Positions 12,808 to 60,850 of a DNA stretch of 64,000 nucleotides are shown here, piece by piece. Position numbers and translations under genes: made by a program. The notes below the pieces were generated by a model, which saw nothing but the letters and a program-made list of their open reading frames with translations, had not been told where the DNA came from and searched no databases. The stretch's first letter is position 1. The number at the start of each line of letters is the position of its first letter. Origin of the DNA: Candidatus Magasanikbacteria bacterium RIFCSPHIGHO2_02_FULL_48_18 (GTDB lineage: Bacteria; Patescibacteriota; Patescibacteriia; Magasanikbacterales; UBA922); assembly GCA_001784285.1 (NCBI GenBank), contig MFQC01000003.1, positions 221,517 to 285,516 of the forward strand, written 5' to 3'.

Positions 12808-13416
12808 ATGTATATGATGCACGAATCATGCCATTGTCATCCAAATCAAGAAACATCTTTCATCAATACGCAGATTCCCGATCTTTCATTTGACATATTT
12901 CACAATAACCAAATACAGCGGGTGAATTTTTCCAACTACAAAGGAAAATGGCTTATTCTCTTCTTTTACCCCGCAGATTTTACATTTGTCTGTCCAACCG
13001 AACTTGAAGAAATGGCAGACCTTTACCCGCAATTCACCGCACTCAACTGCGAAGTGGTCAGCGTCAGCACCGATACGGCCTTTGTCCACAAAGCCTGGCA
13101 TGACACATCGCCAGCCATTAAAAAAATTAACTATCCAATGGCGGCAGACCCCACTGGAACCATCTGCAAAACGTTTAGAACCTACATTCCGGAAGAAGGC
13201 CTTTCATACCGCGCGAGTATTGTTATCAACCCCGATGGCGTTGTGAAAGCGTTTGAAATGCACGACAACAGTATTGGCCGAAGCGCGGAAGAGCTCCTTC
13301 GCAAGCTTCAAGCCGCGCAATATGTCAGCGAACATAGCGGCGAAGTATGCCCGGCAAAATGGAAACCGGGAAGCGCAACCTTGCGCCCAGGATTGGATTT
13401 GGTGGGGAAAATCTAA
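12808..13416 (+). CDS. 2-Cys peroxiredoxin (AhpC/Prx1 family)
   Basis: FTFVCPTE peroxidatic Cys motif and VCPAKW resolving Cys motif. Confidence 0.9.
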   Translation: MYMMHESCHCHPNQETSFINTQIPDLSFDIFHNNQIQRVNFSNYKGKWLILFFYPADFTFVCPTELEEMADLYPQFTALNCEVVSVSTDTAFVHKAWHDTSPAIKKINYPMAADPTGTICKTFRTYIPEEGLSYRASIVINPDGVVKAFEMHDNSIGRSAEELLRKLQAAQYVSEHSGEVCPAKWKPGSATLRPGLDLVGKI

Positions 13417-13473: not shown

Positions 13474-14052
13474 ATGCTCTACACACCAAAAAACTTCACC
13501 CAATTGTTGGGTATGGAAGGATTCAGCGACCAATTGCTGAAAAATCATTTTACGCTCTATGAAGGGTATGCCAAAAATACAAATACCCTTCTTGAAAAAC
13601 TCCCTGTCCTGGATCCCGGCTCGCCGGAATTTAACGAACTCAACCGTCGGTTCGGCTGGGAATTTAACGGCATGCGTTTGCATGAAATCTACTTTGAAAA
13701 TCTCTCCAAAGAAAATACATCTCTTGACAGCGGACATCCGCTGGCAAAAAAAATAGATGAATGTTTTGGCTCATTCGAAAAATGGCAGATGCATTTTAAC
13801 GGTATGGGGACCATTCGCGGCATTGGCTGGGTATTGCTGTATTACGATACGGAAATGAAGCGTTTATTCAATGTGTGGATTGACGAACATGACCGCAATC
13901 ATCTTGCGGGGGAGGCCCCTATTCTCCTCATGGATATGTGGGAACATGCGTTTATGATTGACTACGGACTGGATAAAAAAGGGTATATTGGAGCATTTTT
14001 GAAAAATGCGAATTGGCGTATTGCCATGGAACGATTCAACATGGCGAAGTAA
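13474..14052 (+). CDS. Fe/Mn superoxide dismutase
   Basis: DMWEHAF metal-binding signature and overall SOD_Fe length of about 190 aa. Confidence 0.85.
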   Translation: MLYTPKNFTQLLGMEGFSDQLLKNHFTLYEGYAKNTNTLLEKLPVLDPGSPEFNELNRRFGWEFNGMRLHEIYFENLSKENTSLDSGHPLAKKIDECFGSFEKWQMHFNGMGTIRGIGWVLLYYDTEMKRLFNVWIDEHDRNHLAGEAPILLMDMWEHAFMIDYGLDKKGYIGAFLKNANWRIAMERFNMAK

Positions 14053-28862: not shown

Positions 28863-29222
28863 ATGAACTTCATCGCGAACAACATCGATTGGATTTTCCC
28901 CCTTCTCTGCATGGCCCTTTTCTTCGGGGGTTTTTTCTGGAGCAAGACCCTGTGGCTGCGGCGGCCCGGCAAGCCCCGGGCCAAGCCGGGGACGACGTGG
29001 AGTGTGGTCGCAAACCTCTCCCCCTCCTACCTCCTGGTCGTCCGCCCTTACGGGGGCGACGATGCGAGCTGCCAGCTCTGGCAGCTCCCGAGGAGCTCTG
29101 TGAGCCTCCTCTCCTACCCGGTCGGCACGAAATTCGTCGCCCAAAAGGGCGGCCGCTTCGCAAAGCTCGAGACCGAAAAGGAAGAGCCTTCTTCAAATGA
29201 CCGCAAGGTCAGGAGTATCTGA
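28863..29222 (+). CDS. small high-GC (GC3-biased) gene, foreign composition; N-terminal TM/signal-anchor
   Basis: Third codon positions are almost all G/C, unlike the host. Starts MNFIANNIDWIFPLLCMALFFGGFFWSK. Confidence 0.45.
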   Translation: MNFIANNIDWIFPLLCMALFFGGFFWSKTLWLRRPGKPRAKPGTTWSVVANLSPSYLLVVRPYGGDDASCQLWQLPRSSVSLLSYPVGTKFVAQKGGRFAKLETEKEEPSSNDRKVRSI

Positions 29223-29360
29223 AGACGGCGCATGGGGCAAGGACGGCGGCACATAATCCAACAATCGCGGACGAACACAACACGCCGCCCGAACCCCTGC
29301 AAGGTGTCTGAAAATCGGATATCTTGCAGGAGGATACGGGCGGCGTTTGTTGTTTTATCA

Positions 29361-29452
29361 CCCCTCCCTGCCCCTCCCCGGATGGGGAGGGAACTATTCT
29401 CCCCTGGTTAAACCGTTCCTCCCCCGAGAGGGGGAGGACAGGAGGGGGAATT
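29361..29452. repeat. G-rich hairpin cluster: perfect palindromes ccctcccc-ggat-ggggaggg (29372-29391) and tcctccccc-gaga-gggggagga (29417-29438), plus direct repeat ggaggacaggag
   Basis: Read directly from the sequence. The second hairpin has a GNRA (GAGA) tetraloop. Confidence 0.7.
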
Positions 29453-29830
29453 CTTCAAGTCACCATCCAACCGCCTGCACACTTCTCGTATTTTTTCCTT
29501 TACCCGATCACGATCAAACAACACCTCATCATTCGTAAAACGAAGAATACTATATCCCTGACGACGCAGCCAGTCTTCCCGCGCATGGTCATATTCTTTT
29601 TGAAAATAATGAATCGGTCCATCAACCTCAATAACCAATCGAAGCCATTTGCAATAAAAATCCACAATAAAAAATCCAATACTGGTCTGCCGTTGGAAGC
29701 GATATCCTAATTTTCTTTTCCTTATTTCCTGCCACAGCACCAACTCGGCTTTCGTCATGTGGCGACGAAGCCGACGGCGTCGCTCTTTTACAATGCGCCA
29801 ATACAACCTGTGATCACAATAAAAATTCAT
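29408..29830 (-). CDS. DUF559 endonuclease-domain protein (Vsr-like PD-(D/E)xK fold)
   Basis: LWQEIRKRKLGYRFQRQTSIGFFIVDFYCKWLRLVIEVDGPIH...ILRFTNDEV matches DUF559. The C-terminal about 15 codons are read-through of the hairpin region. Confidence 0.8.
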   Translation of the reverse strand: MNFYCDHRLYWRIVKERRRRLRRHMTKAELVLWQEIRKRKLGYRFQRQTSIGFFIVDFYCKWLRLVIEVDGPIHYFQKEYDHAREDWLRRQGYSILRFTNDEVLFDRDRVKEKIREVCRRLDGDLKNSPSCPPPLGGGTV

Positions 29831-37569: not shown

Positions 37570-37696
37570 ATGCTTCCGTGCCCATACACTTTGTAGGCAT
37601 ACGTGCCGGCCGCGGCTTTGAGTCGATAATCGACCAATCGATTGCCAGGATGAGGAACATAATTCTGAAATGCAATCGCGTCAATGCCGTCTTGCC

Positions 37697-37725: not shown

Positions 37726-37739
37726 TTTTCTCGCGTCAA

Positions 37740-37812
37740 TGCCGTCTTAGCTCAGTTGGTAGAGCGCCGCCATGGTAAGGCTGAGGTCTCGGGTTCGATC
37801 CCCGAAGACGGC
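37740..37812 (+). tRNA. tRNA-Thr (anticodon GGT)
   Basis: Manual cloverleaf: acceptor GCCGTCT/AGACGGC, D stem GCTC/GAGC, anticodon loop AT-GGT-AA, T arm TCGGG-TTCGATC-CCCGA, discriminator T. No encoded CCA. Confidence 0.85.
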
Positions 37813-37978
37813 TCGAAAAATATGGAGGCTGGTCGGTTCTCTCTTCGAGCAGATCACAACCGAGCTGACGGCACGAACCGAAGCCGCCGTGGCGCGCGGG
37901 GCTGAGGACTCCTTCCTCACCGCCCTCCGCGCCCACATCGAGAGGGCGCTCGGCGTCACCCTGCCGCCGCTCTCCTGA
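37813..37978 (+). pseudogene. high-GC 3' gene remnant (C-terminal about 50 codons ...EQITTELTARTEAAVARGAEDSFLTALRAHIERALGVTLPPLS*) abutting the tRNA 3' end
   Basis: Strong GC3 bias. The reading frame runs back into the tRNA, so there is no possible N-terminus. Confidence 0.4.
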
Positions 37979-38116
37979 CCGAGCACACACCGCCCCGCCA
38001 GGCGTTCAACATTGTCGACCAATCTGGCGGGAGCGGTTGACACATTATATTTTTCTCCCGTTGAACTCTCTGCAAAATATTGATATGATCTCTGTATTTG
38101 AAAGATAATTCTCCCT

Positions 38117-38814
38117 ATGAATGTTACTGTCGCCCTTGTCCAATATGCTATTGCTCACCTTGAACCCAAAACAAATATAGAGCGGGCCGAATATTTTATA
38201 CAAAAAGCATCCAAAGAACACGCAAACGTCGTCGTGTTTCCTGAAGATTTCATCACTGCGTCAATTTTTGGCAATCAAGAAAATCTGAATCATGGCGATG
38301 AATACCGCCGCACATTCCAAAGGTTCTTGGGATCTACCACAAAAATCATCCCTATATTTCTGAAAAATCATTCATAGACCCGGGGACGGATATTACCGTA
38401 TTTAACACCGCATACGGCAAAGCCGGCATTATTATTTGCTGGGACATTGTATTCCTGGAGATATTTGAACGAATGAAACAATTGGGAGTGCGTGTCGTCT
38501 TTTGTCCCAGTTATTGGTATAAAGAAATTGCAGGAGAAGGCGCTAAATGGAATTCCACGTGTGAAGAAGATCATATTGACGCCCTCTGCCGTACGCGAGC
38601 CCTTGAAAACAACATCATGTTTATTTACGCAAACGCCGCCGGCGTGATGAAATTTCCAAACGGAACTGTGGATACCCTCATTGGACACTCGCAAATAACA
38701 CTCCCCATTGTTGGGCCGGTTGCAAAAACAGAACATAATAATGAAACCATGATCGTGCACACAGTGGATCTTTCTATTTTGGATATTGGCAGAAAAGAAT
38801 ACTGGCTCGTATAA
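38117..38814 (+). pseudogene. nitrilase-superfamily carbon-nitrogen hydrolase, frameshifted
   Basis: N-part (VVVFPEDFI, catalytic Glu) stops at 38375-38377. The catalytic Cys region (KAGIIICWDI) continues in the +2 frame from 38374. The junction lies in the poly-A run ctgaaaaatca. Confidence 0.7.
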
Positions 38815-38883
38815 CAACAACACTGCTATTGCATTTTGTGCATCATTATTATTGGACAATATTTTTTCCTAAATTTTTAACAG

Positions 38884-38914
38884 AAAACCCCCAGCTTGCG
38901 CCGGGGATTTTTTA
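38884..38914 (+). terminator. Rho-independent terminator after nitrilase-family gene
   Basis: aaaaccccc-agcttgcg-ccgggg-attttttat. Confidence 0.5.
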
Positions 38915-39013
38915 TACTTTTGATAATTTTTGCCGTTCCAAAAATTTATCCTGCACCTTTCCCGAAAATCCCGTAGCTTACTACGGGAATGAGGGAGCTG
39001 AAAGGTACGGGAT

Positions 39014-39259
39014 TTATTTGCTTTCCATGTCTCCGCTTTTGCACACCTTGCATTTGCATTTAAAGAGTGACATCACCGCGGCAAGACCGACCAACACATA
39101 GACCAAATTTTCCAGCCAGCTAACGCCTCCAAGAATAAGATTGACCACGTTCCAATTTCCTCCAAACCACCCCCCAAGGCCAACCAAGCCCCAGTTAAGG
39201 CCACCGATGACGAGGAGGGCAAAGCCTACTTTCGTTCCGGTGCATTTTCCTTTTTGCAT
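39014..39259 (-). CDS. DUF378 family small membrane protein
   Basis: FALLVIGGLNWGLVGL...NLVYVLVGLAAV pattern. Start MQKGKC at 39259. ORF track extends to 39421. Confidence 0.65.
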   Translation of the reverse strand: MQKGKCTGTKVGFALLVIGGLNWGLVGLGGWFGGNWNVVNLILGGVSWLENLVYVLVGLAAVMSLFKCKCKVCKSGDMESK

Positions 39260-39287
39260 ATGCAAAAATTTAAAAATAATTCTTTCT

Positions 39288-40253
39288 CTATTGTCTTCCG
39301 TTTTTTTGCATTCTTTTTCTGCGGATAACTCGACGAACAAGATACACGACAAGAAAAAGAAGAAGCCACAGCGGTATATAAATGACCACCCAAATAATGG
39401 CACTAACCAATCCCTTCCCAAGATCGGTCAAACTGCGCATCGCCTCTTTTACAACCGCAATAGGTTTCCAAGAATCGGAATCATCAATTGCCGGAAGCCC
39501 TTCCGGATCGGTCGACAGATACACGGTGAGTGTTGACAGGTCCGCGCTTTGTTTTAAATATTTCATGCGTCCTTCAATTTGTTCAATGTGCGCCCGCACG
39601 GTCGTGAGTTCTCTTTGGACTGCCAAAATATCATCAATTCTAATCGCTTTTTTCATAATTTCCAAAAACTGGCTCTCTGCCGCGCGAAGATTTCCGAGCT
39701 GAGCGTCAAGATCAACATATTCTTCCGTCACATCTTGTCCGTTGACCGAGCGATTCTCCACCTCTCCCATGTTGCTCACGGCCGCAACCGCCGCGTCAAA
39801 CCGCGCAGATGGGATGCGAATAGTAATACTTCCTGATGGAGCAATATCGGCTTGTGAAATTTGGCTCGCGACGACAAATCCTTTTTCTTGACCCGCAAAG
39901 GCGCTAATATCCGCTATCGTCTGTGCGACGTCTTCTACCACCATTGAGAGCGATCCAGTTTTAATAATAAGCCGATTGACTGATCCGTCGTCCGGCTGTC
40001 CCGGTTCTTTTGGACCCGGGGTAGCGGCTTCAAGATCTGCTTTTTGATCGCCAAGTCTATCTAAAGACAAACGCTGTGTCACCCCTCCCAGTGCACCTGT
40101 CTGAGATTCGGATTCGTCGCCTTCATAATATTGGTTATAGGGATAAGAAGTACCCATGGATGTTCCGTAGTAAAATAACACCTTGAACACCCCAACAATA
40201 ATCAAAAGGAGTAATAAAATTCCTCCCAGCCCATACAACATTTTTTTGTTCAT
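39288..40253 (-). CDS. DUF4349 domain membrane protein
   Basis: N-terminal TM, then DVTEEYVDLDAQLGNLRAAESQFLEIMKKA...AVQRELTTVRAHIEQIEGRMKYL typical of DUF4349. C-terminal TM. Confidence 0.7.
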   Translation of the reverse strand: MNKKMLYGLGGILLLLLIIVGVFKVLFYYGTSMGTSYPYNQYYEGDESESQTGALGGVTQRLSLDRLGDQKADLEAATPGPKEPGQPDDGSVNRLIIKTGSLSMVVEDVAQTIADISAFAGQEKGFVVASQISQADIAPSGSITIRIPSARFDAAVAAVSNMGEVENRSVNGQDVTEEYVDLDAQLGNLRAAESQFLEIMKKAIRIDDILAVQRELTTVRAHIEQIEGRMKYLKQSADLSTLTVYLSTDPEGLPAIDDSDSWKPIAVVKEAMRSLTDLGKGLVSAIIWVVIYIPLWLLLFLVVYLVRRVIRRKRMQKNGRQ

Positions 40254-40494
40254 AGAGGATACGTATAAGAGTTAAAAAGAATTGCCTTGAGTATAGCAAA
40301 AAAACAAAAAATAGTCCACGCGATGTGGACTATTTGAAACAGGTTCTAAGCACCCTATCTGCCTTGATTATGGTTCAAAACAGAAGAGGATGGTCGAGTG
40401 TGGGCTAGGACTCGACCGGCAGAGGCGTTTGCGCCTCCTTGTGGAAGAGTTCATCGAACGAACAGCGGGGCCCAGACCGCTGTGGGTGGGGGGA

Positions 40495-41949
40495 TTAGGC
40501 CTGCGCGACGGCCGGGAACGTGGTGATGGAGGTAGAACGGCTGGCCTGCATCGGCTCAACCGCTACCCCCGCCAGCACCTTGCCCGTGACCTCTTCAATA
40601 CCCCCATAGTGGGGGTATCCGGCCTCACGGTAATCCCGGATCATGTCGACCAGGACTTGCAGGGCGGCCCGGAGCTGGTCACCCTGCTTGGAGTGGGTCA
40701 CCCGAAGGCCACGGATGACCTGGCCGTTCTCGATGTCCTGGAAGCCGGACAGTGGGATGCAGTAGGTGAACTTCGGAAGATCACCGTTCCGCTCCCCGTC
40801 CCGAGCCGCGGCGATCGACGCGAGCAGACGGTGGAGAAGGAGCTGGACCTCGTCGAGTTGGGGGTCCTCGAACACCACGACGTCGTAGTAGGCCCCCTGG
40901 CCGGAAATGAGCCGAAGCCCAGAGACGTACCCCAGAACTTCTCTCGCGATGCGTCGGTTGTCGGCCATCTCCTGGTTGAGCGCCCAGAAGTAGGCAGGCA
41001 ACCCCTCCGGCCCGAAGTCGTTCACGAGTACAGCGAGGGCATGCTGTACGTTCATGAAGTTGTTGACTCCGAGCCAGAGGTTGCTCCAGGGGACCAGAAG
41101 TTGCCGGATGCGCCGGTCGAGGGTCGTGAGTCGGCCGAGCCGCGCAGACGTGATGCAGGCCGTCTTGGACCAGGCCGCGGTCGAGATCGTCCGCGAAAGC
41201 CCGAGTTCGAGGATTGAGCGCGGCAGTCCATCGCTGACGCCGTAGTACTCTTCGTCCGCAAGGACGCACGTCTCACGGCGTTGCGGGTCGAGAAGAAAAT
41301 CTCTGACTGCTCCGAGCTCATCGTCGTCCCAGTTCTTAGCGGTCGGGTTTCCCGGCCGCTCGATGACGACGAGACGGCTCTCCTGCTTGACCCGCCGCAA
41401 CAGACTCGGCGTCACACGGAATCCCTCGCTAGGGTCCGTGGTGATGGCCTGCACCGAACGGCCGAGAAGCTTGCAGATGACCGGTGTGTTCGGCCAGGAA
41501 GGCCGAAACACGGTTACCAGATCTCCTGGCCGTGTGACGAGATTGATCGCCCCAAAGACAGCCCCGATCCCCCCGGGGGTGATCATGCTGTCCTCGGAGG
41601 TGATCCGGACTCCAGTCATCCCTGTCAGGTTCTGGGCGAGCGCGTCGAGAAGCACCTGCTCGCCGAAGGCCTGAGGGTAGGACTCGGGGTGACGCGGGTC
41701 GGCCACGATCGCGCGATAGATGCGATCCGGCGGCAAACGCGACAGACTGCCGACCGCGAGATGTGTGACCGGAACGCCGAGCTTTTCCGCGGTGCGGACG
41801 AGTGGGCGAAGCCGCCGAAGAATCGGCGTCTCGCCCATCATGACCAGGTTTGTCGGGTTCAAGTGGTACGCCCCCTGGCTCGGGCGTTCCACCGTGGTTC
41901 TTGCGCCATAGCCAAGGGCGGCCATAAGCGCTTCACCGGTTGGAGCCAT
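40495..41949 (-). CDS. class I/II PLP-dependent aminotransferase, high-GC foreign gene
   Basis: AWSKTACITSARLGRL (PLP-lysine motif SxSKxxxxxGxRxG) and ERPGNPT. GC3-biased codons, roughly 62% GC versus about 45% background (visual estimate). Start MAPTGEAL at 41949. Confidence 0.8.
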   Translation of the reverse strand: MAPTGEALMAALGYGARTTVERPSQGAYHLNPTNLVMMGETPILRRLRPLVRTAEKLGVPVTHLAVGSLSRLPPDRIYRAIVADPRHPESYPQAFGEQVLLDALAQNLTGMTGVRITSEDSMITPGGIGAVFGAINLVTRPGDLVTVFRPSWPNTPVICKLLGRSVQAITTDPSEGFRVTPSLLRRVKQESRLVVIERPGNPTAKNWDDDELGAVRDFLLDPQRRETCVLADEEYYGVSDGLPRSILELGLSRTISTAAWSKTACITSARLGRLTTLDRRIRQLLVPWSNLWLGVNNFMNVQHALAVLVNDFGPEGLPAYFWALNQEMADNRRIAREVLGYVSGLRLISGQGAYYDVVVFEDPQLDEVQLLLHRLLASIAAARDGERNGDLPKFTYCIPLSGFQDIENGQVIRGLRVTHSKQGDQLRAALQVLVDMIRDYREAGYPHYGGIEEVTGKVLAGVAVEPMQASRSTSITTFPAVAQA

Positions 41950-42182
41950 AACTGCTCTCCTCTGGTTTTTGGTTTTGGCAGTCCCCTTGTGAAACTGCCG
42001 TGAATGGCGTTTTGCCTCAAAACCCAAATTCGGACAGACAGGATGTCCAAAACAGGGTCGCAAAAACGAGGGCGCCACCCTCGTTGAAGCCCGCGGTCCT
42101 CCATCTCCGCGGTTGAGAAAAAGTAAACTTGATTTTTGATGAACAAAGGACTTTACCCCGACAAAAGTCGGGACAAAGATCC

Positions 42183-42267
42183 TGGTGGGCCGGGCAGGAT
42201 TCGAACCTGCGAAGGCAGAGCCAACAGATTTACAGTCTGTCCTCGTTGACCGCTTGAGTACCGACCC
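42183..42267 (-). tRNA. tRNA-Tyr (anticodon GTA), long variable arm, CCA encoded
   Basis: Manual fold: acceptor GGGTCGG/CCGGCCC, anticodon stem ACAGA/TCTGT, loop CT-GTA-AA, T arm GCAGG-TTCGAAT-CCTGC, 85 nt. Confidence 0.85.
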
Positions 42268-42271
42268 CTCG

Positions 42272-42344
42272 AGCCATCTCGGGGATTCGAACCCCGGACC
42301 TTCACTTTACAAAAGTGTTGCTCTACCAGCTGAGCTAAGATGGC
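42272..42344 (-). tRNA. tRNA-Thr (anticodon TGT)
   Basis: Acceptor GCCATCT/AGATGGC, D stem GCTC/GAGC, anticodon loop TT-TGT-AA, T arm CGGGG-TTCGAAT-CCCCG, discriminator T. Lies 4 nt from tRNA-Tyr. Confidence 0.85.
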
Positions 42345-59211: not shown

Positions 59212-60384
59212 ATGGCTACGAAGAACATCGCCGCCGCCGTCCGCCACGTCCTTCCCGCCACCCGCGGATTCGCATTCCACCTCCACCGCGAGCCGGAGCT
59301 CTCCTGGGGCGAGGTGAGGACCATGGACAAGGTGACCGAGGCGATCGTGAACCACTTCACGGAGGCCAGGATCGTCCGGTGGAAGTCCGGATTCTGGACT
59401 GACGTGGTTGTCAACCCGGACGATCCGACGCTCACCATGTTTCGGGCCGACATGGACGCCCTCCCTGTCCAAGAGGCCACCGGCCTGCCCTACTCGAGTC
59501 GTATCCAGGGCGTCATGCACGCCTGCGGACACGACTTCCACACGGCCGGGCTCCTCGGCGCCTACCGCGCGATTGCCCGCGGCCTGGTCAGGCCAACCCG
59601 AAACATCCGGTTCGTGTTCCAGGCGGCCGAGGAATCCCCGGAGTCCGGGGCCAAGGCCATGATCGAGGAATGCGTTCTCGAGAACGTCGTCTCGGCCCAC
59701 GGCGCCCATGTCTGGCCGTACGCGCCGGTCGGTACCGCGCTGTGCCGGCCGGGGCCAATGATGGCCAACCCGGGTGTGCTCCGGCTCAAAATCCGGTCGG
59801 CCGGCGGCCACGTGGCCGATCCGGAGCACGGTTCGGGTGCTCTCCGCGGGGCGGTGTGCGCGATCTGGGGGCTCCTGTCGTCCCAGTTCAACGTGGTCCC
59901 CGAGGGCCAGCCGTTCGTGCTGGAGCCGGTCCAGTGCCAGGCTGGAGACGGTGTCGTCACCAATGTCCTCCCCTCGGAGGCAACGTTGGTGTTCAACATC
60001 CGGCATTTCCTGGTAGGGGACCAGCGCGACCTGCTCCAGGCCGCGATCGAGGGGGTGATCCGCACCTCGGTCGCGAAGGTCCCGGGCGCCGAGGTCGCCG
60101 ATCTCTCCTTCCAGTGGGGCGCGCCGGCACTTCACAACACGCCCGAGGACGTGGAGCGGGTCGGGGCGCTCCTCGGCGCCCAGGGGCTGACCGTCAAGGA
60201 GATGGCCCCGATCCTCGGGGCCGAGGACTTCTCCTACTTCCTCGGCGAGCGGCCCGGCTCATTCTGGTTCTTCGGTGCCCACACCGAGGGCACGGGGCCG
60301 ATCCACAGCCCCACCTTCGTGTGCAACCCGAAGGTCCTCCAGGGCCTCATCGCCTACTGGCTCGCGCTCGCGACCGCTCCGTAG
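59212..60384 (+). CDS. M20D-family amidohydrolase (hippurate hydrolase / N-acyl-amino acid amidohydrolase-like), high-GC foreign gene
   Basis: HACGHD, GAEDFS motifs. Roughly 65% GC with strong GC3 bias. ORF track starts at 59179, but the SD supports 59212. Confidence 0.85.
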   Translation: MATKNIAAAVRHVLPATRGFAFHLHREPELSWGEVRTMDKVTEAIVNHFTEARIVRWKSGFWTDVVVNPDDPTLTMFRADMDALPVQEATGLPYSSRIQGVMHACGHDFHTAGLLGAYRAIARGLVRPTRNIRFVFQAAEESPESGAKAMIEECVLENVVSAHGAHVWPYAPVGTALCRPGPMMANPGVLRLKIRSAGGHVADPEHGSGALRGAVCAIWGLLSSQFNVVPEGQPFVLEPVQCQAGDGVVTNVLPSEATLVFNIRHFLVGDQRDLLQAAIEGVIRTSVAKVPGAEVADLSFQWGAPALHNTPEDVERVGALLGAQGLTVKEMAPILGAEDFSYFLGERPGSFWFFGAHTEGTGPIHSPTFVCNPKVLQGLIAYWLALATAP

Positions 60385-60431: not shown

Positions 60432-60490
60432 ACGCCCTCGTTGGTCACTGATCACGCACGATCATACCAACGAGGGCGTCTGTGTTTTTT
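60432..60490 (+). terminator. Rho-independent terminator of the M20 gene
   Basis: 14-bp stem acgccctcgttggt / accaacgagggcgt followed by a TTTTTT run. Confidence 0.7.
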
Positions 60491-60850
60491 ATCCTGAGCG
60501 AGCCCGCCGATAGGCGGACGAGTCGAAGGATCCTGTTTCAGATAGGATCCCGTTTCAGACAGAACGCTAAAAAGATTTTTCATCTGAGGATTCATCTTTT
60601 CAACCAAATCTATTTTTTTCTTTCTCGTCCACCCTTTCAATTGTTTCTCCCGGGCAGTTGCTTCTTCCGGAGAAAAATATTTTTCAAAATATATCAAGAT
60701 ATCAATATTGTATTTTGCAGTGAATGAATGTTTCTTTTGTTTCCTTACATGTTCACTAAATCTTCTTTTCAAATTATTGGTAACGCCAATATATAAAACT
60801 GTTTTTCGTCTGTTGGTCATTATGTATGTATAATAATATTTTCCACACAT
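60452..60850 (-). CDS. small GIY-YIG nuclease family protein
   Basis: YYTYIMTNRRKTVLYIGVTNNLKRRFSEH is a GIY-YIG motif. Strong SD aaGGGAGGg. The C-terminal tail is read through the opposite-strand terminator, so the real stop is probably earlier. Confidence 0.7.
   Translation of the reverse strand: MCGKYYYTYIMTNRRKTVLYIGVTNNLKRRFSEHVRKQKKHSFTAKYNIDILIYFEKYFSPEEATAREKQLKGWTRKKKIDLVEKMNPQMKNLFSVLSETGSYLKQDPSTRPPIGGLAQDKKHRRPRWYDRA

What the first reader, a model, noticed from the sequence alone, without database searches (positions are those of the whole stretch)
40330..42182. High-GC aminotransferase cassette inserted exactly at the 3' end of tRNA-Tyr
The region is roughly 62% GC by eye with near-saturated GC3. 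The flanks are about 45% GC with A/T-rich third positions. The GC-rich block ends within 1-2 nt of the encoded CCA of tRNA-Tyr (42183). Its other edge lies just past the stop of the aminotransferase. Immediately downstream of that stop, 40481-40506 (tgggtggggggattaggcctgcg) loosely resembles the tRNA-Tyr 3' end (tggtgggccgggcaggattcgaacctgcg), as expected for a degenerate att repeat. This is the classic footprint of integrase-mediated island insertion at a tRNA. No integrase gene remains, so the island appears decayed or minimal. The aminotransferase also has a non-canonical extra C-terminal tail of about 100 aa. Host-to-symbiont transfer from a high-GC host is a plausible source, given a CPR-like background.
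Basis: partly seen in the sequence, partly recalled or inferred. Interest (0 to 1): 0.7.

Follow-up and report, generated by a model that had tools for sequence, protein, structure and literature searches.

The report
Foreign high-GC aminotransferase gene in CPR genome
A single GC-rich aminotransferase gene was acquired by horizontal transfer into a small symbiont-type (Magasanikbacteria) genome and is slowly drifting towards the host's base composition; it lies near a tRNA gene, but nothing shows that it was inserted into that tRNA by an integrase.

Summary
The composition anomaly is real. A block of about 1.56 kb (40392-41947, 64% GC) coincides with one intact gene, 40495-41949 on the minus strand, 484 aa, plus about 100 nt of hairpin-rich 3' UTR. 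Its GC3 is 0.78, against 0.41-0.62 (median 0.49) for the host ORFs of the window apart from one other outlier.

The window is Candidatus Magasanikbacteria (MFQL01000010). Six contigs from five data sets are 100% identical across both junctions, so the join is not chimeric.

The tRNA/integrase reading fails:
- The block stops 70-235 nt from the tRNA-Tyr CCA end.
- The tRNA's own terminator hairpin sits intact in between.
- The proposed att repeat is at chance level.
- No integrase is present.

The gene is a divergent fold-type I PLP aminotransferase from a very small family. Its sister clade lies next to type I PKS genes in higher-GC contigs.

On the window lineage, polarised synonymous changes are 35 GC>AT to 0 AT>GC, which shows amelioration in progress.

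The closest homologues are also single GC-rich genes. At least three of them sit in low-GC Patescibacteria-type contexts, at a locus that is empty in one relative and holds a different GC-rich aminotransferase in another.

The same window holds a second such island, an M20 amidohydrolase with GC3 0.89. Verdict: ordinary horizontal transfer, with a mildly interesting recurrent pattern.

The parts
40495..41949 (-). Aminotransferase CDS: 484 aa, ATG at 41949, TAA at 40495-40497. Fold-type I (class I/II) PLP enzyme, 63.9% GC, GC3 0.78.
   Evidence: ORF and translation. PF00155 at 75.8 bits, gathering score 19.7. PDB profile hit 2gb3, E 6e-38. Foldseek 2gb3, E 5e-23. Invariant S261-K262, N201, D232, Y235, R270, R416 across the family. 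Composition.
40392..40494 (-). GC-rich 3' UTR inside the compositional block, with three short GC hairpins. Probably co-transferred donor DNA, such as a donor-type terminator.
   Evidence: Change point at 40392. Fold -35.9 kcal/mol, z -2.3. Every homologue has a GC-rich hairpin right after its stop codon.
41950..42112 (-). 5' leader, about 50% GC. Shine-Dalgarno GGAGAG at 41955-41960. Two GC hairpins at 42062-42112, one followed by a U-run. Origin (donor remnant or host) is undecided, and no convincing sigma-70 promoter was found.
   Evidence: Sequence. 30-nt GC windows. Fold of 42055-42115, -27.1 kcal/mol. Promoter scan found none on the minus strand here. No Rfam family matched.
42114..42182 (-). 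Host-like, partly AT-rich spacer. It carries the tRNA operon's terminator hairpin (42151-42178) directly after tRNA-Tyr and separates the tRNA from the GC-rich block.
   Evidence: -20.5 kcal/mol, z -4.8. The relative L015 also has a terminator hairpin directly after its tRNA-Tyr.
42183..42267 (-). tRNA-Tyr (GTA), intact, with encoded CCA.
   Evidence: ARAGORN. Rfam RF00005 at 56.2 bits.
42271..42344 (-). tRNA-Thr (TGT), immediately upstream of tRNA-Tyr on the same strand (3-nt spacer; a shared operon is inferred).
   Evidence: The same pair is present in L015.
40309..40335 (-). Host-composition intrinsic terminator: an 11-bp stem followed by a U-run, downstream of the aminotransferase. It overlaps a promoter-like site at 40290-40318 for the next gene.
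   Evidence: Fold -14.4 kcal/mol, z -6.2.
39288..40253 (-). DUF4349 gene. This is a native Magasanikbacteria gene flanking the island on the far side: 46% GC, GC3 0.43.
   Evidence: About 400 homologues, mostly Magasanikbacteria, at 45-62% identity. Composition.

Best explanation
The block is one horizontally acquired gene. It encodes a divergent class I/II (fold-type I) PLP-dependent aminotransferase whose recent ancestry lies in a high-GC organism. It is now fixed in a roughly 48% GC Candidatus Magasanikbacteria genome.

The gene sits in a rearrangement-prone intergenic slot, downstream of the terminator of the tRNA-Thr/tRNA-Tyr operon and upstream of native genes (DUF4349, DUF378). It was not inserted into the tRNA.

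Shown here:
- The composition and codon-usage anomaly.
- Reproducible junctions across assemblies.
- Absence of the gene at the syntenic site of a related genome.
- An intact gene with conserved catalytic residues.
- Strongly one-directional GC>AT synonymous decay, meaning amelioration is under way with roughly one third of the GC3 excess already lost.

Inferred:
- Entry was by uptake of foreign DNA and illegitimate or microhomology recombination into non-essential intergenic DNA. Deletion then trimmed the donor flanks down to the CDS plus about 100 nt of 3' hairpins.
- The enzyme is kept because it interconverts amino and keto acids scavenged by a bacterium of a group that generally lacks amino-acid biosynthesis. 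The second island in the window encodes an M20 N-acyl-amino-acid amidohydrolase/carboxypeptidase-type enzyme, which fits the same theme.
- The substrate is unknown.
For: Composition:
- GC 0.64 and GC3 0.78, against a host GC3 median of 0.49 with a narrow spread.
- RSCU correlation with host genes is 0.21. With the window's other GC-rich gene it is 0.87, and with homologues 0.80-0.81.
- GARP residues are 32%, against 25% in host proteins.

Assembly: six contigs from five data sets (of 17 contigs read that carry the protein) are 100% identical over 2.5 kb spanning both junctions.

Synteny: the related Magasanikbacteria locus L015 has GlyRS-M16-TIM-TPR-tRNAThr-tRNATyr-terminator-DUF378, with no aminotransferase and no GC island. 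The native Magasanikbacteria aminotransferase (467 aa, 37% GC) is only 22% identical.

Family:
- There are 8 close relatives among 5.8e9 proteins.
- There are about 6 clusters among 1.84e9 representatives, followed by a drop from 212 to 151 bits.
- The sister clade P0007/P0008 sits after a KS-AT-ACP-TE type I PKS or a thioesterase in 52-63% GC contigs.
- A deeper member sits at matching 35-38% GC, so high GC is not intrinsic to the family.

Amelioration: synonymous changes polarised by an outgroup on the window lineage are 35 GC>AT to 0 AT>GC. Unpolarised they are 47:2, binomial p about 4e-12. L007 shows 9:6.

Functionality: Pfam, PDB and Foldseek matches and invariant catalytic residues. A Shine-Dalgarno sequence is present.

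Against a tRNA/integrase mechanism.
Against: - No donor was identified. No high-GC genome carrying a copy more than 50% identical was found in any collection.
- The closest relatives are themselves GC-rich single genes. L007, L010/L011 and L012 are at a locus found in Patescibacteria MAGs, so the immediate donor could have been another CPR bacterium.
- The only syntenic relative available is distant (TIM 56% identical). It gives no exact empty site, so the true insertion boundaries are not defined to the nucleotide.
- No promoter was recognised upstream, and two terminator-like hairpins precede the gene. Expression is unproven.
- Insertion near a tRNA operon is compatible with an old integrase event whose traces have been erased.
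Confidence: 0.8

Rival explanations
1. One reading: a genomic island inserted by a tyrosine integrase into the 3' end of tRNA-Tyr. The integrase was later lost and a degenerate att repeat remains at 40481-40506.
For: The island lies on the 3' side of a tRNA gene. It has a composition anomaly. The region between the two convergent tRNA 3' ends (37815-42182) looks like a variable region: it holds a split nitrilase and a GC-rich gene remnant abutting tRNA-Thr(GGT).
Against: - The boundary is 70-235 nt from the CCA, with an intact terminator hairpin in between.
- The att alignment is at chance level: 15.7% of shuffles reach its score.
- No other copy of the tRNA 3' end exists.
- No integrase or recombinase Pfam hit is on record for the called genes within +/-4 kb.
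- No homologous island has a tRNA nearby. The second island in this window (59212-60384) is not next to a tRNA either.
Confidence: 0.05
2. The immediate donor was another Patescibacteria (CPR) bacterium. The gene circulates among CPR lineages and only its deeper origin is in a high-GC organism.
For: The closest homologues (77-80% and 51-52% aa) are GC-rich genes in 41-50% GC flanks. L007, L010 and L012 share an upstream NDP-sugar pyrophosphorylase gene that is found in named Patescibacteria MAGs, L023 and L024. The literature reports that Patescibacteria preferentially exchange genes with one another (PMC12455944).
Against: - Four-fold sites between the window copy and L007/L009 are fully saturated: 0.35-0.36 observed against 0.36-0.38 expected.
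- Despite this, L007 keeps GC3 0.95 with a near-balanced substitution pattern of 9:6.
- Time enough to saturate synonymous sites inside low-GC genomes should have erased the GC3 excess. The copies therefore spent most of their separate history in high-GC genomes.
Confidence: 0.12
3. Assembly chimera: a high-GC contig fragment wrongly joined into a CPR scaffold.
For: Abrupt composition change at both edges.
Against: Six contigs from five data sets are 100% identical through both junctions: two ENA contigs named k141_, one named k127_, one scaffold-type ENA record, a JGI assembly and the NCBI MAG, of 17 contigs read that carry the protein. The longest contigs are 290 kb. Host-type terminator, promoter and Shine-Dalgarno signals frame the gene.
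Confidence: 0.01
4. A native or long-resident gene whose high GC is actively maintained, by selection on mRNA or codons or by GC-biased conversion, rather than being a transfer footprint.
For: Every clade member whose DNA could be read is GC-rich in low-GC flanks, although the copies share only 45-79% aa identity. Three of them share the same upstream neighbour, with synonymous sites saturated in both genes.
Against: - Decay on the window lineage is strongly directional (35:0). It is also directional in L010 (26:0) and L009 (10:0).
- The shared locus is empty in L023. In L024 and L020 it holds a different, only distantly related GC-rich aminotransferase. This points to repeated acquisition at a hot spot.
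- A deeper family member sits at native low GC.
- The gene is absent from L015.
Confidence: 0.05

Closest known systems
Horizontally acquired single-gene compositional islands undergoing amelioration (Lawrence-Ochman type), as reported for genomic islands and HGT genes in groundwater Patescibacteria (PMC12455944).
   Same: Atypical GC, GC3 and codon usage confined to one gene. Absence at the syntenic site of a relative. Patchy family distribution. Directional decay towards the host's composition.
   Different: The cargo is an amino-acid-metabolism enzyme, a class that the paper reports as rarely acquired by Patescibacteria. No mobility gene is present. The same kind of cargo (GC-rich PLP aminotransferases) recurs in several Patescibacteria-type contexts.
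tRNA-targeted integrative islands and prophages (tyrosine-integrase, att-flanked).
   Same: Located on the 3' side of a tRNA gene, with foreign composition.
   Different: No integrase, no att direct repeat, and a boundary at least 70 nt from the tRNA with an intact terminator in between. The cargo is a single gene of 1.5 kb.
Subgroup-I aspartate/aromatic/prephenate-type aminotransferases. The best solved relative is Thermotoga maritima TM1698 (PDB 2gb3). The best NCBIfam models are PRK07568 and GntC-like.
   Same: PF00155 domain and fold-type I architecture. The SxxK lysine, the NPT asparagine, the D-x-x-Y motif and the C-terminal substrate arginine are all conserved.
   Different: - Only about 20% identical to the solved structure.
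- 484 aa rather than about 400.
- An N-terminal extension and internal insertions are present.
- A family-specific C-terminal motif, DY.EAG.P.YG.IEEV.GKV.
- All NCBIfam scores are far below the family cut-offs, so no equivalog and no substrate assignment.

Membership tests
tRNA-targeted integrase-mediated genomic island | Integrase or recombinase gene at one end of the island | tested here: not met
   Of the called genes within +/-4 kb, those with Pfam hits on record are GlyRS, M16, TIM, TPR, Aminotran_1_2, DUF4349, DUF378, CN_hydrolase and ATP-grasp. The rest have no hit. None is an integrase.
tRNA-targeted integrase-mediated genomic island | Direct repeat of the tRNA 3' end (attL/attR) at the distal boundary | tested here: not met
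   The best gapped alignment scores 16, a value reached by 15.7% of shuffles and 3.2% of all windows. No match with up to 3 mismatches occurs elsewhere. No repeat family was found.
tRNA-targeted integrase-mediated genomic island | Foreign DNA begins within or immediately at the tRNA 3' end | tested here: not met
   The GC block ends at 41947 (strict) or 42112 (lenient), while the tRNA ends at 42183. A terminator hairpin at 42151-42178 lies in between.
Horizontally transferred gene (compositional island) | GC, GC3 and codon usage are outliers relative to the resident genes | tested here: met
   GC3 0.78 against a median of 0.49. RSCU correlation with host genes 0.21.
Horizontally transferred gene (compositional island) | Absent from the syntenic position in related genomes | tested here: met
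   L015 (Magasanikbacteria CG10_47_10) has the same upstream synteny and DUF378 downstream, but no aminotransferase. Caveat: this relative is distant (TIM 56% identical).
Horizontally transferred gene (compositional island) | Directional substitution towards the host composition (amelioration) | tested here: met
   35 GC>AT to 0 AT>GC among polarised synonymous changes.
Horizontally transferred gene (compositional island) | Identified donor lineage or phylogenetic nesting within a donor clade | tested here: inconclusive
   The sister clade is PKS-linked in 52-63% GC contigs of unknown taxon. No named high-GC organism carries a close homologue.
Class I/II (fold-type I) PLP-dependent aminotransferase, PF00155 | Sequence match above the curated threshold | tested here: met
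   PF00155 at 75.8 bits against a cut-off of 19.7.
Class I/II (fold-type I) PLP-dependent aminotransferase, PF00155 | Catalytic lysine and PLP/substrate-binding residues conserved | tested here: met
   Invariant N201, D232, Y235, S261, K262, R270 and R416 in all 8 family members. Their roles are assigned from general knowledge of the family, not from an explicit residue-by-residue mapping onto a structure.
Class I/II (fold-type I) PLP-dependent aminotransferase, PF00155 | Fold-type I three-dimensional architecture | tested here: met
   The AF2 model has pLDDT 72.6. Foldseek finds 2gb3 at E 5e-23, with TM 0.79 normalised on the target.
Class I/II (fold-type I) PLP-dependent aminotransferase, PF00155 | Transaminase activity and substrate | not testable with these tools
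   All NCBIfam equivalog scores are far below their cut-offs, for example GntC at 85 against 415.

The most novel reading that the evidence does not exclude
Several Patescibacteria lineages have independently and repeatedly captured GC-rich PLP aminotransferase genes from one as yet unsampled clade of high-GC, PKS-bearing bacteria.
- The lineages are this Magasanikbacterium and a separate lineage with an NDP-sugar-pyrophosphorylase 'slot'.
- That slot is empty in one genome and filled by at least two unrelated GC-rich aminotransferases in others.
- An M20 amidohydrolase was captured in this window as well.

This would be a footprint of host-to-episymbiont gene flow that supplies amino-acid salvage functions. 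Such one-gene compositional islands could then be used to infer the unknown hosts of CPR bacteria.
Probability: 0.2. Interest if true: 0.6.

Novelty: new member of a known kind. Interest (0 to 1): 0.38.

Why it matters
On its own this is one more horizontally acquired gene in a CPR genome. The event is cleanly documented, with reproducible junctions, measured amelioration and a functional-looking enzyme.

Its wider value comes from two patterns:
- Foreign genes for amino-acid handling appear twice in 64 kb of a bacterium from a group (Patescibacteria) that generally lacks amino-acid biosynthesis.
- GC-rich aminotransferase genes recur as single-gene islands in several low-GC Patescibacteria-type contexts.

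If the donors can be found, these islands could point to the physical partners (hosts) of CPR lineages, which are unknown for almost all of them. The finding is also a caution that proximity to a tRNA does not by itself indicate integrase-mediated insertion.

Tried and rejected
- att-repeat hypothesis: local alignment with shuffle and genome-wide controls, plus mismatch searches. The result is at chance level.
- Riboswitch or leader RNA upstream, or a known RNA inside the block: Rfam at the gathering threshold and at E<=1 found only the tRNAs and one chance hit.
- Mobile-element carriers: tblastn against plasmids and phages gave at most 25-28% identity. The IMG/VR scan and the first JGI contig scan with the family profile found nothing.
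- Exact empty site: the genome-contig scan with the TIM protein returned only one, distant relative. The DUF4349 homologue search showed nothing between 62% and 100% identity, so no close sister genome is available.
- Integron-cassette idea: the 3' hairpins were inspected by eye only and showed no attC-like R''/R' cores. This was not formally tested and was dropped.
- Shared 3' element between the window and L009/L012/L024: the GAGGAGA...TCTCCTC hairpin is clear in those three loci but not convincingly present in the window.
- Vertical inheritance versus repeated acquisition, tested by comparing synonymous divergence of the gene and of the flanking gene: both are saturated, so the test is uninformative.
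- The L020 and L024 aminotransferases turned out to be a different, distantly related family, not members of this one.
Full report
**1. The observation**

The window has a mean GC of 47.6%, with an sd of 6.7% for 200-nt windows. From about 40350 to 42000, 300-nt windows run at 61-66% GC, and the adjacent flanks are at 39-48%. A cumulative-GC change-point analysis places the block at 40392-41947, which is 1,556 nt at 64.1% GC. Only with a lenient threshold does it extend to 42112.

The block coincides with one ORF on the minus strand, 40495-41949. It has an ATG preceded by GGAGAG. Its GC at codon positions 1/2/3 is 0.67/0.46/0.78. The other long ORFs of the window are very uniform, with GC3 0.34-0.62 and a median of 0.49. 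The single exception is 59212-60384, with GC3 0.89.

tRNA-Tyr(GTA) lies at 42183-42267(-) and tRNA-Thr(TGT) at 42271-42344(-). The compositional island and the neighbouring tRNA are therefore real.

**2. What is not as described**

The GC-rich block does not abut the tRNA. Directly after the CCA comes a host-like spacer (42114-42182) that is only 27-30% GC at 42110-42154. It carries a 12-bp hairpin at 42151-42178 (-20.5 kcal/mol, z -4.8) followed by a U-rich tract, which is the tRNA operon's terminator. The 5' leader of the gene (41950-42112) is about 50% GC.

The proposed att remnant at 40481-40506 aligns to the tRNA-Tyr 3' end only with two gaps, for a score of 16.
- 15.7% of shuffles of that segment reach this score.
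- 3.2% of all 51-nt windows of the sequence reach it.
- 5 of 172 windows inside the block itself reach it.
- The segment also overlaps the stop codon.

No further copy of the tRNA 3' end, at 23 nt with up to 3 mismatches or 15 nt with up to 2, exists in 64 kb. No direct-repeat family links the tRNA to the far edge. The called genes within 4 kb either side carry no integrase or recombinase hit.

**3. Not an assembly artefact**

The protein is identical to 'hypothetical protein A3G08_02715' of Candidatus Magasanikbacteria RIFCSPLOWO2_12_FULL (GCA_001783045.1) and was read on 17 contigs. Six of those contigs, from five data sets, are 100% identical to the window over 2.5 kb spanning both junctions. 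They are three ENA contigs named k127_/k141_, one scaffold-type ENA record, a JGI assembly and the NCBI MAG.

**4. Genomic setting**

A related Magasanikbacteria genome is L015 (CG10_47_10, TIM 56% identical). It has the same upstream synteny of GlyRS, M16 peptidase, TIM, TPR protein, tRNA-Thr and tRNA-Tyr. A terminator hairpin follows directly, and then comes a DUF378 gene. There is no aminotransferase and no GC island.

In the window, two genes lie between tRNA-Tyr and DUF378:
- the GC-rich aminotransferase;
- a DUF4349 gene that is native in composition and has hundreds of Magasanikbacteria homologues. In other Magasanikbacteria it sits after a thioredoxin gene.

The slot downstream of the tRNA operon is therefore prone to rearrangement. 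The aminotransferase found near DUF4349 in two other Magasanikbacteria contigs (467 aa, 37% GC) is only 22% identical to this protein. No genome closer than about 62% (DUF4349 identity) exists in the databases, so an exact empty site could not be obtained.

**5. The gene product**

- PF00155 scores 75.8 bits.
- NCBIfam hits are all far below their cut-offs. The best are GntC-like at 85 bits and PRK07568 at 84 bits, the latter covering residues 38-442.
- A profile of the family finds T. maritima AspAT 2gb3 at E 6e-38.
- An AlphaFold model (pLDDT 72.6) matches 2gb3 at E 5e-23, with TM 0.79 on the target.
- The residues expected of a class I aminotransferase are invariant in all eight relatives: N201, D232, Y235, S261-K262, R270 and R416.

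The extra length compared with enzymes of about 400 aa is spread over three places: an N-terminal extension, internal insertions, and a C-terminal part of about 45 aa. Sequence alignments to canonical enzymes run to about residue 430-442. Beyond the helix at 423-442 lies a family-conserved motif (DY.EAG.P.YG.IEEV.GKV, helix 451-459), and then 25 disordered, non-conserved residues. A 100-aa tail is not supported. The substrate cannot be assigned.

**6. Family and origin**

The family is very small.
- It has eight close relatives among 5.8 billion proteins.
- In an exhaustive HMM scan of 1.84 billion representatives, only about six clusters appear before scores fall from 212 to 151 bits into generic aminotransferases.
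- A neighbour-joining tree gives a clade P0001-P0006.
- Its sister, P0007/P0008, lies directly after a KS-AT-ACP-TE type I PKS (L008, 63% GC) or a thioesterase-domain protein (L013, 52% GC), with gene GC matching the contig.
- A deeper member, P0221, sits in a 35% GC contig at matching GC3 of 0.29. High GC is therefore not an intrinsic property of the family.

The window protein has a high-GC type of amino-acid composition, with GARP at 32% against 25% in host proteins. Its codon usage is uncorrelated with that of the host (r 0.21).

**7. Amelioration**

In a codon alignment with L007, L009 and outgroup L012, synonymous changes unique to the window copy are 35 GC>AT to 0 AT>GC. Unpolarised they are 47:2, binomial p about 4e-12. 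L007, with GC3 0.95, shows 9:6.

Assume an ancestral GC3 of about 0.89-0.95 and a host equilibrium of 0.49. About 63-73% of the excess then remains, which gives a relaxation parameter of about 0.3-0.5. This estimate is an inference from a simple model. The gene is thus neither newly arrived nor ancient, and it is clearly out of compositional equilibrium.

**8. The homologues show the same pattern**

Every other P0001-P0006 clade copy whose DNA could be read is a gene of 64-69% GC, with GC3 0.81-0.95, in flanks of 41-53% GC. These are L007, L009, L010/L011 and L012. The 400 nt downstream of L007 (61% GC) is an exception. None has a tRNA nearby. Each has a GC-rich hairpin just after the stop codon.

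L007, L010 and L012 share an upstream NDP-sugar pyrophosphorylase gene with GC3 0.34-0.52. That gene occurs in two long contigs annotated as Patescibacteria MAGs.
- In L023 it abuts a convergent gdh gene, so the site is empty.
- In L024 the same site holds a RayT transposase gene and a different aminotransferase of 484 aa, 63% GC and GC3 0.82. That protein is only distantly related to this family (27% identity over 154 aa).
- L020 has a third arrangement, with a distant aminotransferase at GC3 0.60 against 0.35 in the flank gene.

Four-fold sites are saturated between all copies and also in the flank gene. Vertical co-descent in low-GC genomes should therefore have erased the GC3 excess. The simplest reading is repeated acquisition of GC-rich aminotransferase genes from related high-GC donors into Patescibacteria, at a hot spot in one lineage and beside the tRNA operon in this one. 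The donors remain unidentified. This part is inference and is recorded as unexplained in the notebook.

**9. A second island in the window**

The gene at 59212-60384(+) has 68% GC and GC3 0.89. It encodes an M20 amidohydrolase: PF01546 at 125 bits, and TIGR01891 at 209 bits against a cut-off of 154. It has host-type upstream sequence and a shared terminator with a GIY-YIG gene, and no tRNA is nearby. Its codon usage correlates with that of the aminotransferase (r 0.87) and not with the host (r 0.12). Foreign GC-rich genes in this genome are therefore not tied to tRNAs. Both encode enzymes that would help to salvage amino acids.

**10. Mechanism and verdict**

Shown: the gene is foreign in composition, fixed, intact and ameliorating, and there are no integrase or att features.

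Inferred:
- Entry was by DNA uptake and illegitimate recombination into a dispensable intergenic slot, followed by deletional trimming to the CDS plus 3' hairpins.
- The gene is retained for amino-acid/keto-acid interconversion.

HGT and genomic islands in groundwater Patescibacteria are already described, and amino-acid metabolism genes are reported as rare cargo (PMC12455944). This is a new member of a known kind. The recurrent GC-rich aminotransferase islands in Patescibacteria are the one aspect worth following up.

Noticed in passing
window 59212-60384 (+): A second single-gene GC-rich island, with 68% GC and GC3 0.89. It encodes an M20 amidohydrolase (TIGR01891 above its cut-off). The upstream region is host-like and AT-rich. 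The gene shares a hairpin terminator with a convergent GIY-YIG gene at 60452-60850(-). No tRNA is nearby. Codon usage resembles the aminotransferase (r 0.87). In some GenBank records the gene is annotated only as fragments of 190-207 aa.
   Followed up: partly
window 37815-38045: A GC-rich patch (about 59-68% GC) starts 8 nt after the 3' end of tRNA-Thr(GGT) (37741-37814). It contains an open frame ending at 37978 with GC3 0.78 and no plausible start codon outside the tRNA. It looks like the 3' remnant of another foreign GC-rich gene. No Pfam or NCBIfam hit.
   Followed up: partly
window 38117-38377 and 38473-38814 (+): Two adjacent ORFs in different frames. The first matches the N-terminus of nitrilase/CN_hydrolase models. 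Together they look like a frameshifted nitrilase pseudogene, lying in the 4.4-kb region between the two convergent tRNA 3' ends.
   Followed up: partly
window 37676-37693 and 37731-37748: An exact 18-nt direct repeat, TCGCGTCAATGCCGTCTT. The second copy includes the first 8 nt of tRNA-Thr(GGT). The 37 nt between the copies contain a TTGAC...TATACT promoter-like sequence.
   Followed up: no
window 28863-29450: Another GC-rich patch (about 61%). It holds a 119-aa ORF (28863-29222, +) with an N-terminal hydrophobic segment and no family hit, followed by GGGGAGG/CCTCCCC-type repeats next to a small gene at 29408-29830(-).
   Followed up: no
L023 10411/10412 versus L024 10415-13808: In two syntenic Patescibacteria MAG contigs, the site between an NDP-sugar pyrophosphorylase gene and a convergent gdh gene differs. 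It is empty in L023. In L024 it holds a RayT (REP-associated tyrosine transposase) gene plus a GC-rich 484-aa aminotransferase of a different family, with GC3 0.82 against about 0.37 in the flanks. L007, L010 and L012 have this finding's family at the same site.
   Followed up: partly
L009 1919-1966, L012 2293-2342, L024 about 12950-13030: A shared hairpin motif, GAGGAGA(A/C)...loop...TCTCCTC, lies about 100-190 nt downstream of the stop codon of the GC-rich aminotransferase genes. The genes in L012 and L024 belong to different families, so the motif probably belongs to the recipient locus. It was not found in the window.
   Followed up: partly
L024 about 13140-13190 and about 13520-13570: Two copies of a roughly 45-nt GC-rich repeat, GGGGTGAGCGCATG..GCGCTC.AACCCCCG, in the intergenic region downstream of the GC-rich aminotransferase. 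They are possibly REP-like elements associated with the neighbouring RayT gene.
   Followed up: no
L008 458-6658; L013 2-2428: The sister clade of the family lies directly downstream of a single-module type I PKS (KS-AT-ACP-TE, 1383 aa) plus a lipocalin-like protein in a 63-69% GC contig, or of a thioesterase-domain protein. This suggests that the family's ancestral role is in a small polyketide-amine pathway.
   Followed up: partly
window 42183-42185 versus L015 11840-11842: tRNA-Tyr encodes its CCA end in this genome but not in the related Magasanikbacteria genome L015.
   Followed up: no
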